This document shows positions 7,529 through 9,537 of a stretch of DNA of 11,620 nt, piece after piece. The notes below the pieces were generated by a model. That model made no database searches. It saw only the letters and a program-made list of their open reading frames with translations, and was not told the DNA's origin. Source of the stretch: a virus; the IMG/VR virus record IMGVR_UViG_3300023214_000676. One strand, 5' to 3'. The translations under genes were made by a program, and so were the position numbers. Each line of letters starts with the position of its first letter. Within the stretch, counting starts at the first letter, position 1.

Positions 7529-7690
7529 TTACCTGATGCTCCAGAGAAAGCCGGCAGCAAAGGCGTTCGTTGCGGCCGCTATGAAGTTGAGCGAGACGAC
7601 CAGCGCGTTCACGTTGCTGTAGAGGCCGAGGACTCCGGCAGCCGCAAAGCAAATGGAGGCCAGAGAACACATGGCTGCGCCGAATTTCAT
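7529..7690 (-). CDS. Small hydrophobic (probably 2-TM) membrane peptide, 53 aa (MKFGAAMCSLASICFAAAGVLGLYSNVNALVVSLNFIAAATNAFAAGFLWSIR).
   Basis: ATG 7690 overlaps the TGA of the macro gene (ATGA). The stop TAA at 7529-7531 lies 4 nt before the ligase ATG. The composition is almost entirely hydrophobic. It reads in the coding frame at the end of the spurious 278-aa ORF. Confidence 0.45.
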   Translation of the reverse strand: MKFGAAMCSLASICFAAAGVLGLYSNVNALVVSLNFIAAATNAFAAGFLWSIR

Positions 7691-8298
7691 GAGTTCTCCT
7701 CTATGACCCGGATCAGCTCGTCCGTCTGCTCGTTCTTGCGATCCTCCGGCAGGTCGTACACGAAAACCTGCCGATGGCACAGGTGCCGTTCGATCAGGGG
7801 CTCGATCTTCGACCACTCTCCTCCAGCCAGCCCGCATCCGATCCGCGGCATGTGGAAGACGACGGGAGGAGCCGAAGCCCGTTTCCACCGATGGCGTCCC
7901 ATGTCGAAGCCGGTTCGCACCTGCTCCAGGTCGACAGCCCATCTTCCCAGCCACCCCAGGCATTCCGAGAGAGCCTCGTAGTCCACGGCGACGCGCCTCT
8001 GGGATGTCCGGTATCCGTCTTGGGCAACCATGTTGACAACGAACAGCTCTCCGTGCTCGTCGGCCACCCTGGCCACCTGGCAGAGCCCGAGGGGGATCTT
8101 CTCGTTCTCCTCGGCGCAGATGGCTGCCCACTCCCGGTACCGCCGCTCCGGCTCCGGCCAGCGCCTGCTCAGCGCCAGCACATAACCGGCTCCCCAGCCG
8201 CCCAGGTTGTTGCAGATGTGCGGAAGGATGCGAATCCCGCCGCCGTTCGAGGGCGGACGGGTGGCATCGCCGACGACATATTTGATGGGAAGGGTCAC
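7687..8298 (-). CDS. Macro domain protein (ADP-ribose / ADP-ribose-1''-phosphate binding or hydrolysing), 203 aa.
   Basis: - The GTG start at 8298 is preceded by GGAGGA (8305-8310, spacer 6 nt) and overlaps the stop of the upstream gene (GTGA).
- KYVVGDATRP..ILPHICNNLGGWGAGYVLAL aligns with the macro signature (YmdB: [33 protein letters not shown]).
- The second glycine loop HMPRIGCGLAGGEW corresponds to AFPAISTGVYGYP. Confidence 0.65.
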   Translation of the reverse strand: MTLPIKYVVGDATRPPSNGGGIRILPHICNNLGGWGAGYVLALSRRWPEPERRYREWAAICAEENEKIPLGLCQVARVADEHGELFVVNMVAQDGYRTSQRRVAVDYEALSECLGWLGRWAVDLEQVRTGFDMGRHRWKRASAPPVVFHMPRIGCGLAGGEWSKIEPLIERHLCHRQVFVYDLPEDRKNEQTDELIRVIEENS

Positions 8299-8636
8299 GG
8301 ACGATCCTCCATGGATGAAAGGGGGTCGAGGTACTGTCGGAGAATATCGTCGATCTCCGAATCAAGAACGGTCTCTGCGAACCTCATGTCCCTTTCCGCG
8401 ACATATCCGTGCGCAGGCGTGCCGACCATCTCGATCCGCACCGGCGGCAGGCATCTCGCCGTCCCCCTCCTGCTCCATTGGGGCTCGGACCGGGACAGCA
8501 TGCAGGTTCCGCACCGAACCTGGGTGCCGAGCGCCGACGGGTTCGTGAGCATCATGTGGTGCCCGCAACTCAACAGGATCCTCCCCGGCGGTCCGTCCCC
8601 GACTACGCGGCAGATGATCTCGGGGATCACAGACAT
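8295..8636 (-). CDS. Cys-rich hypothetical protein, 113 aa (CRVVGDG.., SCGHH, CGTC). Possible zinc-binding domain, function unknown.
   Basis: ATG 8636 overlaps the SLT gene end by 10 nt. The stop overlaps the GTG of the macro gene. It is in the coding frame of the C-terminal third of the otherwise Arg-rich 287-aa track ORF. No family is recognisable by eye. Confidence 0.45.
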   Translation of the reverse strand: MSVIPEIICRVVGDGPPGRILLSCGHHMMLTNPSALGTQVRCGTCMLSRSEPQWSRRGTARCLPPVRIEMVGTPAHGYVAERDMRFAETVLDSEIDDILRQYLDPLSSMEDRP

Positions 8637-9172
8637 AGGTCGCTCCTTTTCAGGCAGGTCTCGACATTCTTGGGAAAGGACCTTGCCCTGATCGCGGCAT
8701 AGGCTTCGATCTTCCCGTCCCAGGCCGCCTTGTACGCTGCCCGGACCCACAGGACGTTCAGGTAGTACTTGCCCGAGGCCCCGTACCAGTTGTAGTGGCG
8801 GAGCCAATGGTGCTTTCCCTTGCACTTCCGGCGCCAAAGCGCCATGATGTAGGTGCCCCAGTCGATGTTGCACCGCATCTTGAGCAGGTCGCACTTCCTC
8901 CTGCCGGGGTACTGGGCCGTGCCGATCCGGGCCTTCGAATTGATTTGCATCAGCCCCCAATCGCTGGTGCTGCTCACCAGCCAGCTCTGGAAGCCGGACT
9001 CCACCCTGATCACGGAGAGGACGAGCACGGGATCCAACCTGCGCCGCATGGACTGCTGGCAGACGATCCTCGACATCCTCTGGAGATAGGCCGTCCGCCG
9101 CAGCGTGGCACGCCCCGGGTGGGATGACACGGCCATCTTGGCGATCATCACGACGCATTGGGCAAGTGTCAT
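8627..9172 (-). CDS. Lytic transglycosylase, SLT domain (goose-type lysozyme-like fold), about 181 aa.
   Basis: SLT catalytic signature: LVLSVIRVESGFQSWLVSSTSDWGLMQIN (E-S...GLMQI), followed by a Tyr/Trp-rich region (YNWYGASGKYYLNVLW). ATG 9172 overlaps the TGA of the upstream DUF5658 gene (ATGA). The N-terminus is hydrophobic (LAQCVVMIAKMAV), a possible signal or anchor. Confidence 0.75.
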   Translation of the reverse strand: MTLAQCVVMIAKMAVSSHPGRATLRRTAYLQRMSRIVCQQSMRRRLDPVLVLSVIRVESGFQSWLVSSTSDWGLMQINSKARIGTAQYPGRRKCDLLKMRCNIDWGTYIMALWRRKCKGKHHWLRHYNWYGASGKYYLNVLWVRAAYKAAWDGKIEAYAAIRARSFPKNVETCLKRSDLCL

Positions 9173-9537
9173 CCGCAATACCTCCTCACCTCGTCAGCCA
9201 CCCGGACCAGCGCCCAGTTGTGGCTCGCGATGTGGAAGTAGATGATGGAATACAGGAGAGTCATGGACTTGGCCACGGCAGACCTGTCCCACACCTTGTA
9301 GCAGAGAAGGGAAAGGACAAGGGCCATGAACACCTTGGGCAGCCACCACGAGGAGCCCAGGACGCCCATGAGCCATCTGACCAGGGGATTGGCCTCCCGC
9401 CCCATCCCCGTGGCCAGGACGGCATTGGTAGTGAGTATGTCGGCGGCGGTCAACCCCACGTAGATCGCCAGCAGGCATGCCAGGAGCACCGGTCTGTCGG
9501 GAACCAGGTCCTTCAATTGCAGCTTTCCGCGGTCCAT
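9169..9537 (-). CDS. Small integral membrane protein, DUF5658-like (E-x-NP motif), 122 aa.
   Basis: MDRGKLQ.. then the TM segment LLACLLAIYVGLTAADILTTNAVLATGMGREANPLVRWLMGV and a second TM segment LPKVFMALVLSLLCY. The D..TT..L...G..E.NPL pattern is characteristic of DUF5658. ATG 9537 has AGGGA upstream. The 77-aa Gly/Arg-rich N-terminal extension in the ORF track is rejected. Confidence 0.55.
   Translation of the reverse strand: MDRGKLQLKDLVPDRPVLLACLLAIYVGLTAADILTTNAVLATGMGREANPLVRWLMGVLGSSWWLPKVFMALVLSLLCYKVWDRSAVAKSMTLLYSIIYFHIASHNWALVRVADEVRRYCG

What the first reader, a model, noticed from the sequence alone, without database searches (positions are those of the whole stretch)
7529..9537. 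Cell-wall lytic and membrane module (DUF5658 membrane protein, SLT lytic transglycosylase, Cys-rich protein, 53-aa hydrophobic peptide) embedded mid-operon
A small membrane protein followed by a peptidoglycan lytic transglycosylase resembles a holin-endolysin pair. The same pairing occurs in the specialised transglycosylases that open peptidoglycan for large macromolecular assemblies such as secretion systems and flagella. An MVP particle would be about 40-70 nm, far larger than peptidoglycan pores, so export or release would need local lysis. Alternatively the module may point to phage ancestry or an abortive-infection lysis effector. No other phage structural genes are present in the window.
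Basis: inference. Interest (0 to 1): 0.55.

Follow-up and report, generated by a model that had tools for sequence, protein, structure and literature searches.

The report
Cell-wall cutter inside huge-phage cassette
The four genes are real, but they are a variable accessory stretch (a wall-cutting enzyme, a small membrane protein, a recent gene insertion, an overlooked macrodomain gene and a fast-evolving membrane peptide) inside a conserved gene cassette of huge-phage-like elements, not a classic lysis cassette or an exit door for vault particles.

Summary
All four named ORFs exist on the minus strand at the stated coordinates and are translationally coupled. They are DUF5658 (9537-9169), an SLT lytic transglycosylase with an intact catalytic Glu (9172-8627), a Cys-rich ORF (8636-8295) and a 53-aa two-helix peptide (7690-7529).

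Related contigs (GC 0.31-0.64) share the cassette u2-(u1)-DUF5658-[variable slot]-Rnl1 RNA ligase-AAA-LonA, with or without MVP. Two are IMG/VR viral contigs of 244 and 318 kb; another is a 460-kb contig. The SLT sits in the variable slot. It is present in five lineages that carry DUF5658 and lost in two. In two lineages a 207-216-aa protein with no predicted signal peptide or membrane helix separates it from DUF5658. In sister loci it is paired with a secreted metzincin.

DUF5658 has family-wide invariant polar residues, which is unlike holins. The Cys-rich ORF is a clean 340-bp insertion absent from a 91%-identical relative. Fifteen other viral MVP loci lack both SLT and DUF5658, so MVP export is not supported.

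Best reading (confidence about 0.4): an accessory, periplasm-directed, wall- or envelope-remodelling set. A lysis cassette remains a weaker rival. SLT export is unresolved.

The parts
9169..9537 (-). DUF5658 small inner-membrane protein (122 aa, about 3 TM helices plus a C-terminal helix). It is a core member of the cassette.
   Evidence: Pfam PF18902 E=4e-12. Helices 15-42, 51-82 and 85-104 in a low-confidence model; hydrophobic TM1. D33, E48 and N50 are invariant and T37 and K68 are at least 90% conserved over 44 relatives. Present in every cassette lineage with coverage of that region.
8627..9172 (-). Family-1 lytic transglycosylase (SLT domain), a Cys-rich subfamily. The ATG at 9172 overlaps the DUF5658 stop (ATGA); an alternative TTG lies at 9178.
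   Evidence: Pfam PF01464 E=7e-10. E60-S61 aligns to the MltC catalytic Glu. E-S, GLMQ, N-I-x-x-G-T and Y-N-W are invariant, and six Cys are invariant, across relatives of 39-69% identity. Nearest PHROG is phrog_19349, unknown function.
8295..8636 (-). Cys-rich ORFan (113 aa; C9, C24-x-HH, C42-x2-C45, a possible Zn-ribbon by eye). It is a recent gene-sized insertion between SLT and the macrodomain gene.
   Evidence: L261 is 91% and 80% nt-identical on the two sides but lacks window 8633-8294, where 7 nt stand instead. It is absent in L001 and present in L262 at 99.9%. No Pfam, PHROG, NCBIfam, PADLOC, PDB or phage hits. GC3 is 0.79 and it has an AAGGAG RBS.
7687..8298 (-). Macrodomain protein (203 aa, SCO6735/ALC1-like ADP-ribosylhydrolase class), no predicted signal peptide or membrane helix.
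   Evidence: PDB 5e3b 'Macrodomain protein' E=1e-34, 2afc and 2fg1 at E about 4e-32, and ADP-ribose 1''-phosphate phosphatase 6lfu at 2e-8. phrog_335 E=7e-25 and a weak DarG macro hit. No TM segment.
7529..7690 (-). 53-aa two-helix hydrophobic peptide (Ala/Gly-rich hairpin), fast-evolving.
   Evidence: Two weakly hydrophobic segments, 19-mer dG about +0.6. Counterparts of 50 and 61 aa sit at the same position in L261 and L001. It is only 38% identical to the L261 copy while flanking genes are 76-95% identical.
9513..9776 (-). u1, an 87-aa protein of unknown function with no predicted signal peptide or membrane helix, immediately upstream of DUF5658 (25-nt overlap).
   Evidence: Conserved in L261 (95%) and L001 (51%). 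A 79-aa gene occupies the same position in L021 and L267; no sequence similarity to u1 was detected. No family hits.
9773..10081 (-). u2, a 102-aa acidic helical protein of unknown function. It always precedes DUF5658, with or without u1 between.
   Evidence: tblastn matches directly upstream of DUF5658 in L001, L003, L021, L263, L264 and L267. Only a non-significant Pfam ART hit, E=0.076.
10887..11321 (-). Predicted lipoprotein (144 aa; signal peptide MKHLKRIFPMLLVIMGG|C), another envelope protein of the same operon.
   Evidence: The sequence shows n-region, h-region and lipobox. It is 76% identical to the 144-aa gene at the same place in L001.
6361..7524 (-). T4 Rnl1-family RNA ligase (387 aa; start corrected to the ATG at 7524), the downstream anchor of the variable slot.
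   Evidence: phrog_562 E=3e-34 and TIGR02308 E=4e-15. 40-70% identical in L001, L003, L263, L264 and L267.
107..6382 (-). AAA+ ATPase (about 6382-5057), LonA protease (5048-2700) and MVP homologue (2695-107), the conserved cassette partners.
   Evidence: Pfam AAA, LON_substr_bdg + AAA + Lon_C, and MVP_shoulder. The same trio occurs in L003, L263 and L264.

Best explanation
The 2-kb span is not one lysis unit. It is the variable accessory slot of a conserved cassette carried by huge-phage-like elements: u2-(u1)-DUF5658-[slot]-Rnl1 RNA ligase-AAA+-LonA, with MVP either before u2 or after Lon.

DUF5658 is a core inner-membrane component of that cassette. It has about three TM helices and a conserved polar constellation: Asp/Thr in TM1, a Glu-x-Asn-Pro loop, and Lys in TM2.

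The slot holds lineage-specific cargo. In this window the cargo is:
- a catalytically intact, Cys-rich family-1 lytic transglycosylase;
- a recently inserted Cys-rich ORFan;
- a macrodomain ADP-ribosylhydrolase with no predicted signal peptide or membrane helix;
- a rapidly diverging two-helix membrane peptide.

Inferred mechanism: during infection the operon co-expresses cytoplasmic RNA-repair, ADP-ribose-removal and proteolysis functions together with a few envelope-directed proteins (lipoprotein, DUF5658, SLT, small peptide). The SLT cleaves MurNAc-GlcNAc bonds in the periplasm. It would locally loosen or remodel the sacculus in the manner of a small specialised transglycosylase, and in sister phages it acts alongside a Sec-secreted metzincin. 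It is a dispensable accessory, not the phage's terminal endolysin.

Shown here: gene identities, catalytic motifs, synteny, presence/absence pattern, and the insertion. Inferred: periplasmic location of the SLT, its remodelling role, and any physical link to DUF5658.
For: Identities.

The cassette is conserved at 40-57% protein identity across contigs of GC 0.31-0.64. These are L001, L003, L021, L101, L261, L263, L264 and L267. L021 and L267 are IMG/VR viral contigs of 318 and 244 kb, and L003 lies on a 460-kb contig.

Slot variability:
- SLT alone in L264.
- A 207-216-aa protein, then SLT, then an M10 metzincin in L003 and L021.
- SLT, then macro, then peptide in the window, L261 and L001.
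- A repeat protein instead of SLT in L263.
- Only an M10 remnant in L267.
- A 340-bp Cys113 insertion among relatives that are more than 90% identical.
- The peptide is 38% identical while its neighbours are 76-95% identical.

DUF5658 is retained in all 7 lineages and is specific to the cassette. It was found in 0 of 15 other MVP loci and in only 1 of 240 other SLT loci, and that one is L021.

Support for a periplasmic SLT:
- Six invariant Cys, including two C-x6-C pairs.
- The overlapping partner gene in L003, L021 and L101 is a metzincin (HExxHxxGxxH) with a clear signal peptide.
- A lipoprotein is encoded in the same operon.
- The N-terminal 12-mer hydrophobicity in the four low-GC homologues equals that of the signal-peptide h-regions.

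Flanking genes hit phage families (nucleotidyltransferase, NUDIX, RNA ligase, phosphatase). This fits the jumbo-phage RNA-repair gene sets described in PMC7824862.
Against: - No envelope-spanning machine (secretion system, pilus, flagellum) is encoded nearby for a 'specialised' transglycosylase to serve.
- The N-terminal hydrophobic stretch of this window's own SLT is weak (12-mer dG +2.8, with a Lys inside, no basic n-region) and contains an invariant Cys. It may be a structural helix rather than a signal peptide. If so, the enzyme would need a holin.
- The structure models were too poor to check disulfide geometry (pLDDT 57 and 49).
- Phage identity rests on IMG/VR classification of two relatives and on gene content. 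No capsid, terminase or tail gene was seen in any fetched flank, apart from one weak 'portal' PHROG hit.
- The window's own source contig was not found.
- No experiment bears on any step.
Confidence: 0.4

Rival explanations
1. A true phage lysis cassette. DUF5658 (or the 53-aa peptide) would be the holin or pinholin, the SLT would be a signal-less transglycosylase endolysin released through it, and the upstream lipoprotein would act as a spanin-like outer-membrane component.
For: - A small multi-TM protein lies immediately upstream of, and is ATGA-coupled to, a muralytic enzyme.
- The window's SLT lacks a convincing Sec signal: no basic n-region and a weak h-region.
- A second small two-helix peptide has weakly hydrophobic, pinholin-like helices.
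- A lipoprotein is in the same operon.
- The context is phage-like.
- Transglycosylase-type endolysins exist in jumbo phages, for example phiKZ gp144 (own knowledge).
Against: - DUF5658 carries invariant D, E and N, and near-invariant T and K, over 44 relatives, unlike holins.
- Its charged C-tail exists only in the window lineage.
- DUF5658 and SLT are separated by a 207-216-aa protein with no predicted signal peptide or membrane helix in L003 and L021.
- SLT is lost while DUF5658 and the cassette persist in L263 and L267.
- 0 of 239 other SLT loci have a DUF5658 neighbour.
- The 53-aa peptide has no charged C-terminal tail and occurs only in one lineage.
- The sister-locus partner is Sec-secreted.
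- The surrounding genes are RNA-repair and proteolysis functions, not late genes.
Confidence: 0.2
2. An envelope-defence or superinfection-exclusion set, or an abortive-infection effector. Small membrane peptides, a lipoprotein and secreted hydrolases would alter the infected cell's envelope to block competing phages, or would kill the cell when triggered by the AAA/Lon components.
For: - The 53-aa peptide diverges much faster than its neighbours (38% against 76-95%), as expected for an arms-race gene.
- The slot gains and loses genes.
- Lipoproteins and small inner-membrane proteins are the usual exclusion factors, for example T4 Imm/Sp, T5 Llp and Cor (own knowledge).
- The AAA and Lon proteins give weak PADLOC hits to IetA and BrxL.
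- Jumbo phages carry surface-modifying anti-superinfection systems (PMC7824862).
Against: - PADLOC has no hit for SLT, DUF5658, Cys113 or the peptide.
- No known exclusion system uses a lytic transglycosylase (own knowledge).
- The Lon is a full-length canonical LonA, not a BrxL-type protein.
- Nothing identifies a sensor or trigger.
Confidence: 0.15
3. One reading: the transglycosylase opens peptidoglycan so that 40-70 nm MVP (vault-like) particles can be exported or released.
For: - MVP and SLT are in one operon here and lie within 2-3 kb of each other in L003 and L264.
- Vault-sized particles exceed peptidoglycan pore size (own knowledge).
Against: - 15 of 15 other viral MVP loci, including three huge-phage GenBank records, lack SLT and DUF5658.
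- A bacterial chromosomal MVP has no such neighbours.
- L263 keeps MVP without SLT.
- L021 has the SLT block but no MVP within 10 kb.
- No export machinery or signal on MVP is evident.
Confidence: 0.03

Closest known systems
Specialised small lytic transglycosylases of macromolecular assemblies (VirB1, IpgF/IagB, EtgA, P19; flagellar BB0259/FlgJ-type)
   Same: A single-domain family-1 SLT enzyme of about 180 aa with E-S, GLMQ and YN motifs, encoded inside an operon of otherwise non-muralytic genes. The best NCBIfam hit is the flagellar-assembly transglycosylase BB0259, though it is weak.
   Different: No secretion system, pilus or flagellar genes are nearby. The Sec signal is ambiguous. It is a distinct Cys-rich subfamily (six invariant Cys, HWLRHYNW motif) seen only in these phage-like contigs and absent from 185,579 species genomes.
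Phage holin-endolysin(-spanin) lysis cassettes (lambda S/R/Rz; SAR endolysin plus pinholin of phage 21 and P1; phiKZ gp144 transglycosylase endolysin)
   Same: A small membrane protein directly upstream of a muralytic enzyme, an extra small two-helix peptide, and a lipoprotein in the operon.
   Different: The membrane protein belongs to a family with invariant polar residues. It persists without the enzyme and is often not adjacent to it. There is no SAR-length N-terminal anchor and no i-spanin/o-spanin pair. The block is embedded among RNA-repair, proteolysis and MVP genes.
Jumbo-phage RNA-repair and ADP-ribose-processing gene sets (RNA ligase plus RlaP nucleotidyltransferase plus Macro/NUDIX/phosphoesterase), as surveyed in PMC7824862
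   Same: The surrounding operon has a T4 Rnl1-type ligase, macrodomain, NUDIX and calcineurin-like phosphoesterase. Sister loci add RlaP and a second nucleotidyltransferase-like protein.
   Different: That survey does not mention MVP, LonA, DUF5658 or a lytic transglycosylase in such sets: 0 hits for 'vault', 'MVP' and 'SLT', and its only 'transglycosylase' is a DNA-base enzyme. No paper in the library mentions DUF5658.
Eukaryotic vault (MVP with PARP4 and TEP1)
   Same: An MVP homologue with a shoulder domain is encoded beside ADP-ribose-handling enzymes (macro, NUDIX). Human vaults bind ADP-ribose in the MVP shoulder and house an NADase and a PARP (10.64898/2026.05.01.722283).
   Different: This is a prokaryotic viral context. 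No PARP, TEP1 or vault RNA was detected (no tRNA or Rfam hit). Envelope enzymes have no vault counterpart.

Membership tests
Family-1 lytic transglycosylase (SLT domain, PF01464) | SLT domain match above Pfam's gathering score | tested here: met
   38.9 bits against a cut-off of 21.3, E=7e-10.
Family-1 lytic transglycosylase (SLT domain, PF01464) | Catalytic Glu in an E-S motif | tested here: met
   E60-S61 is invariant in all relatives and aligns with 'ESS' of MltC. The 4cfo mutant chain has Q there.
Family-1 lytic transglycosylase (SLT domain, PF01464) | Motifs G-L-M-Q and (A)-Y-N-x-G downstream of the Glu | tested here: met
   G75-L76-M77-Q78 and Y129-N130-W131 are invariant. The last motif reads HYNW, not AYNAG.
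Family-1 lytic transglycosylase (SLT domain, PF01464) | Muralytic activity producing 1,6-anhydroMurNAc | not testable with these tools
   Needs a zymogram or HPLC-MS of muropeptides.
Holin-endolysin lysis cassette | Small TM protein adjacent to the muralytic gene, with the adjacency conserved among relatives | tested here: not met
   They are adjacent in the window, L261, L001 and L264. A 207-216-aa gene separates them in L003 and L021. DUF5658 is kept without SLT in L263 and L267.
Holin-endolysin lysis cassette | Holin-like sequence character (no conserved catalytic-type polar residues; highly charged cytoplasmic C-tail) | tested here: not met
   D33, E48 and N50 are invariant and T37 and K68 are at least 90% conserved over 44 relatives. 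The charged tail occurs only in the window lineage.
Holin-endolysin lysis cassette | Endolysin lacks a secretion signal (canonical type) | tested here: inconclusive
   The N-terminal 12-mer is signal-peptide-like in four low-GC homologues (dG -1.0 to +0.4) but weak in the window and P0002 (+2.8 and +3.4). There is no basic n-region, and an invariant Cys lies inside it. SignalP and DeepTMHMM were not available.
Holin-endolysin lysis cassette | Triggered lysis on co-expression | not testable with these tools
   Requires an experiment.
SAR endolysin / pinholin system | N-terminal weakly hydrophobic TM-length (about 18-20 aa) signal-arrest-release domain on the enzyme | tested here: not met
   The best 19-mer dG is +9 to +11 kcal/mol in all six SLT homologues.
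Specialised transglycosylase of a trans-envelope machine | Encoded within genes for a secretion system, pilus or flagellum | tested here: not met
   No such genes occur in the window or in up to 10 kb on either side of the match, contig permitting, in L001, L003, L021, L263, L264 and L267.
DUF5658 (PF18902) | Domain match above the gathering score and shared motif | tested here: met
   47.2 bits against 25.2. All cassette homologues score 53-60 bits. The D...T / E-x-N-P / K motif is shared.
Macrodomain (SCO6735/ALC1-like) | Full-length sequence similarity to solved macrodomains, including the Gly-rich ADP-ribose loops | tested here: met
   5e3b E=1e-34 over residues 5-125 and 144-182, with the motifs NxLGGWGxG and PRIGCGLAGG aligned. 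Pfam's own Macro models gave no hit.
Huge/jumbo phage genome | Contig of at least 200 kb with phage hallmark genes (capsid, terminase, portal, tail) | tested here: inconclusive
   Relatives lie on 244-kb and 318-kb IMG/VR viral contigs and on a 460-kb contig. Flanks hit PHROG families. No hallmark gene lay within the fetched 20 kb, and the window's own contig was not found.

The most novel reading that the evidence does not exclude
DUF5658 with u2/u1 would be the membrane anchor of a phage-built intracellular assembly: an MVP shell with LonA, an AAA+ ATPase and RNA-repair enzymes. The Cys-rich transglycosylase (plus a metzincin in sister phages) would clear peptidoglycan and envelope proteins at that site. 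This would be a previously unknown envelope-tethered, vault-like compartment in cells infected by huge phages. The evidence does not exclude it: the u2-DUF5658 pair is the most constant companion of Rnl1/Lon, and MVP is present in most lineages.
Probability: 0.06. Interest if true: 0.85.

Novelty: new variant of a known kind. Interest (0 to 1): 0.42.

Why it matters
The individual enzymes are ordinary: an SLT transglycosylase and a macrodomain. Their setting is not.

A cassette joins an MVP (vault protein) homologue, LonA, an AAA+ ATPase and a T4-type RNA ligase. It always carries a small DUF5658 membrane protein and usually a dedicated Cys-rich transglycosylase. It recurs in huge-phage-like contigs whose base composition ranges from 31% to 64% GC. 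I found no description of it in the searchable literature.

This gives the uncharacterised DUF5658 family a defined, testable genetic context. It also shows that phage MVP genes travel with ADP-ribose- and RNA-handling enzymes, which echoes the NAD/ADP-ribose biology now emerging for eukaryotic vaults.

For the finding as posed, the practical value is negative. It should not be annotated as a holin-endolysin pair, and it offers no evidence that vault-like particles are exported.

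Tried and rejected
- Source contig: an exact-sequence search in IMG/VR, megablast against GenBank phages, and exact protein look-ups for MVP and the phosphoesterase all found nothing.
- L003 and L264 are not in IMG/VR by exact match.
- SLT subfamily in bacterial genomes: only generic SLTs of at most 38% identity in 185,579 species genomes. The metagenome scan added only the fragment L101.
- DUF5658 relatives in IMG/VR by motif scan: none. tblastn of DUF5658 and of Cys113 against GenBank phages: none.
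- AlphaFold2 models of SLT (pLDDT 57) and DUF5658 (pLDDT 49) were too poor to test disulfide geometry or to justify fold searches, so I ran none.
- The representative-library search for DUF5658 gave 213 small unnamed proteins. The cluster look-up gave no useful names.
- A tRNA-like or other RNA partner, as proposed for SPFH-type RNA-repair systems (own recollection of Burroughs and Aravind 2016, which was not retrievable): none found by ARAGORN or Rfam in six loci.
- PADLOC: no defence-system hit for the envelope genes.
- SAR-endolysin reading: rejected on hydrophobic length.
- The precomputed label 'Gad2' (PF26128) for the protein between DUF5658 and SLT in L003 and L263 was not reproduced by my own Pfam scan or by the PDB search. 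I treat it only as 'nucleotidyltransferase-like by label'.
- The u2 hit to Pfam ART (E=0.076) was rejected as non-significant.

Full report
**1. What is in the sequence**

The window is 60-68% GC, and every credible gene lies on the minus strand. Reading 5'->3' on that strand, the genes are:

| Gene | Coordinates | Size |
|---|---|---|
| NUDIX fragment | 11602-11318 | fragment |
| Lipoprotein (lipobox IMGG\|C) | 11321-10887 | 144 aa |
| Calcineurin-like phosphoesterase | 10890-10078 | 270 aa |
| u2 | 10081-9773 | 102 aa |
| u1 | 9776-9513 | 87 aa |
| DUF5658 | 9537-9169 | 122 aa |
| SLT | 9172-8627 | 181 aa |
| Cys-rich ORF (Cys113) | 8636-8295 | 113 aa |
| Macrodomain protein | 8298-7687 | 203 aa |
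| Hydrophobic peptide | 7690-7529 | 53 aa |
| T4 Rnl1-type RNA ligase | 7524-6361 | 387 aa |
| AAA+ ATPase | about 6382-5057 | about 441 aa |
| LonA | 5048-2700 | 782 aa |
| MVP homologue | 2695-107 | 862 aa |

These assignments rest. Within the finding, the genes are linked by ATGA/GTGA overlaps, or by a 10-nt overlap between SLT and Cys113, and each has a Shine-Dalgarno-like sequence. Promoter-like and terminator-like matches do not exceed the shuffled expectation. GC3 is 0.74-0.92 in all frames called.

The omission is the macrodomain gene, which takes up 612 of the 2009 bases. It matches PDB 5e3b 'Macrodomain protein' at E=1e-34 and ADP-ribose-1''-phosphate phosphatases at about 1e-8, and phrog_335 at 7e-25.

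**2. The transglycosylase**

The SLT passes Pfam's threshold. Its E60-S61 aligns with the catalytic Glu of MltC, and the E-to-Q mutant chain 4cfo marks that residue.

Across homologues of 39-69% identity, three sets of residues are invariant:
- the family-1 motifs: E-S, G-L-M-Q, N-I-x-x-G-T and Y-N-W;
- six cysteines, including two C-x6-C pairs;
- the motif HWLRHYNW.

The second test, export signals, is unresolved. The first 12-16 residues are hydrophobic and end in a V/A-x-T/S | H/S-P pattern. Their 12-mer insertion energy in the four low-GC homologues (-1.0 to +0.4) equals that of the clear signal peptides of the neighbouring metzincin and lipoprotein (-0.3 to -0.6). In this window and in P0002 the stretch is weaker (+2.8 and +3.4), has no basic n-region, and contains an invariant Cys. 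The AlphaFold2 model was too weak to examine Cys geometry (pLDDT 57).

**3. Comparative context**

Protein searches found very few relatives of the SLT, but their contigs are informative. I extended them through MVP and Rnl1 relatives and compared loci by tblastn and HMM. A conserved cassette emerges:

| Locus | GC | Gene order |
|---|---|---|
| window / L261 | 0.63 | u2-u1-DUF5658-SLT-(Cys113)-macro-peptide-Rnl1-AAA-Lon-MVP |
| L001 | 0.52 | same order up to AAA, without Cys113 |
| L264 | 0.37 | RlaP-MVP-u2-DUF5658-SLT-Rnl1-AAA-Lon |
| L003 (460-kb contig) | 0.44 | RlaP...MVP-TM protein-u2-DUF5658-216 aa-SLT-M10-Rnl1-AAA-Lon |
| L021 (IMG/VR, 318 kb) | 0.46 | u2-79 aa-DUF5658-207 aa-SLT-M10-Lon |
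| L263 | 0.40 | MVP-155 aa-u2-DUF5658-213 aa-[204-aa repeat protein]-Rnl1-AAA-Lon |
| L267 (IMG/VR, 244 kb) | 0.34 | u2-79 aa-DUF5658-NTase-like-[M10 remnant]-Rnl1-Lon |
| L101 | 0.31 | SLT-M10-Rnl1 fragment |

Three points follow from the table.
- u2 and DUF5658 are in every lineage, and Rnl1 and Lon are in all lineages where the contig reaches them, except that L021 has no Rnl1 match.
- SLT is present in five of the seven lineages that carry DUF5658 and has been lost in two.
- The interval between DUF5658 and Rnl1 is a gain-and-loss hotspot.

Within the window's own lineage the hotspot is visible at fine scale. L261 is 91% and 80% nt-identical on either side of a clean 340-bp gap that corresponds exactly to Cys113. 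The junctions share an imperfect TC(T/C)GTGA(T/C)CC repeat. The 53-aa peptide is 38% identical to its L261 counterpart, while u1, DUF5658, SLT, macro and Rnl1 are 95, 91, 92, 76 and 87% identical.

**4. Nature of the element**

- The SLT subfamily was not found in one genome from each of 185,579 bacterial and archaeal species. The best hits there were generic SLTs of at most 38% identity.
- MVP is widespread in bacteria (more than 4700 hits). A chromosomal example, L265 (GC 0.71), stands alone among housekeeping genes.
- The cassette loci are long runs of small co-oriented ORFs, mostly without Pfam hits. Their flanks hit PHROG families for nucleotidyltransferase, NUDIX, RNA ligase and phosphatase.
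- Two cassette loci are IMG/VR viral contigs of 244 and 318 kb.
- MVP homologues also occur in 13 IMG/VR loci and in three huge-phage GenBank records of 462-735 kb.

I conclude that the window most likely comes from a huge phage or a closely related large mobile element. No hallmark structural gene was seen in the fetched flanks, and the window's own contig could not be retrieved.

**5. Testing the interpretations**

MVP export. None of the 15 other viral MVP loci has SLT or DUF5658. L263 keeps MVP without SLT, and L021 has SLT but no MVP within 10 kb. This idea is not supported.

Holin-endolysin. In favour are the adjacency, the translational coupling, the weak signal on the window's SLT, a second small two-helix peptide and a lipoprotein. 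Against it:
- DUF5658 shows invariant D33, E48 and N50, and at least 90% conserved T37 and K68, across 44 relatives at 16-50% identity. This is the signature of a ligand-binding or catalytic membrane protein, not of a holin.
- It persists where SLT is lost, and it is not adjacent to SLT in L003 and L021.
- It occurs in none of the 239 other SLT loci examined.
- The SLT is dispensable in two lineages, so it is not their essential endolysin.
- In L003, L021 and L101 its overlapping partner is a metzincin (HExxHxxGxxH; fragilysin/MMP-like) with a canonical signal peptide. That points to Sec delivery of this enzyme pair.

Specialised transglycosylase. The size and single-domain architecture fit, but no trans-envelope machine is encoded nearby.

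Defence or abortive infection. PADLOC gives nothing for the envelope genes.

**6. Most likely mechanism** (inference, confidence about 0.4)

The operon co-expresses two kinds of function:
- Cytoplasmic counter-defence and housekeeping genes: Rnl1, macrodomain, NUDIX, phosphoesterase, AAA+, LonA and MVP. These resemble the jumbo-phage RNA-repair sets reviewed in PMC7824862.
- A handful of envelope-directed proteins.

DUF5658 is a fixed inner-membrane component tied to u2. The SLT is optional cargo. It reaches the periplasm and cuts glycan strands to loosen or remodel the wall during infection, in sister phages together with a secreted protease. The 53-aa peptide and Cys113 are fast-turnover accessory genes of unknown role.

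A lysis cassette (0.2) and an envelope-defence or exclusion function (0.15) remain open.

**7. Novelty**

The enzymes belong to known families. The cassette and the DUF5658-SLT association appear undescribed. No paper in the library mentions DUF5658. The jumbo-phage survey does not mention MVP or such a transglycosylase. The viral-MVP preprint matches none of the neighbourhood terms searched ('neighbor', 'operon', 'transglycosylase').

I rate it a new variant of a known kind, of moderate interest. The mechanism is unproven. The context (MVP with ADP-ribose enzymes, Lon and a membrane protein) is the more interesting part, given recent evidence that human vaults bind ADP-ribose and house an NADase.

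Noticed in passing
window 7687-8298 (-), with 10078-10890 (-) and 11318-11602 (-): A macrodomain ADP-ribosylhydrolase, a calcineurin-like phosphoesterase and a NUDIX hydrolase share the operon with an MVP homologue. A 2026 preprint reports ADP-ribose bound in the MVP shoulder of human vaults and an NADase (TEP1) inside them. The phage cassette may therefore reflect an old MVP link to ADP-ribose.
   Followed up: partly
window 8294-8633 (-); L261 1278-1284: The Cys-rich ORF is a clean 340-bp presence/absence polymorphism between relatives that are more than 90% identical. It is flanked by an imperfect TC(T/C)GTGA(T/C)CC repeat that recreates the start-stop overlaps. It has no homologue in any library searched.
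   Followed up: yes
L262 1-1620 (JGI Ga0248504_1056638): This is a chimeric contig. The C-terminal half of a DapF-like diaminopimelate epimerase is fused in frame to the 3' half of the SLT at window position 8932, followed by Cys113 and the macrodomain start at 99.9% identity. It is either an assembly chimera or a real recombination or integration junction.
   Followed up: partly
window 7529-7690 (-); L261 1892-2044; L001 7885-8070: The small two-helix peptide is only 36-38% identical between relatives whose neighbouring genes are 76-95% identical (L261) or 51-76% identical (L001). This is a local hotspot of divergence.
   Followed up: yes
window 10887-11321 (-): The ORF listed as 177 aa almost certainly starts at the internal Met and encodes a 144-aa lipoprotein (MKHLKRIFPMLLVIMGG|C), conserved at 76% in L001. 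It is a further envelope protein of the operon that lies outside the finding's coordinates.
   Followed up: partly
window 107-2695 (-) compared with L003 5726-8200, L263 7946-10501 and L264 2873-5332: MVP has changed position. It lies downstream of Lon in the window but upstream of u2, next to an RlaP nucleotidyltransferase, in the low-GC lineages. The cassette itself spans GC 0.31-0.64.
   Followed up: partly
L264 8922-12314; L267 11259-14576: In two lineages the Lon gene is about 1130 aa. The N-terminal and the AAA/protease parts match the window's Lon, with about 350 residues of unmatched sequence inserted after residue 346.
   Followed up: no
L263 12303-12917: Where other lineages carry the SLT, L263 encodes a 204-aa protein made of about eight tandem 'LSEDFI...W..IS.YQ' repeats. 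The gene caller had annotated only a 40-aa ORF there.
   Followed up: partly
L003 9354-10004; L021 9377-10000; L263 11651-12292; L267 8805-9377: A conserved 207-216-aa protein sits between DUF5658 and the SLT slot. A precomputed Pfam table labels it 'Gad2' (PF26128), but my own Pfam scan and a PDB sequence search gave no hit. It is absent from the window lineage.
   Followed up: partly
window 6361-7560 and 5057-6574 (-): Gene-start corrections. The RNA ligase most likely starts at the ATG at 7524, just after the peptide's stop, not at the TTG at 7560. The AAA+ gene probably starts at the ATG at 6382 (441 aa, against 448 aa in L001) rather than at the GTG at 6574.
   Followed up: partly
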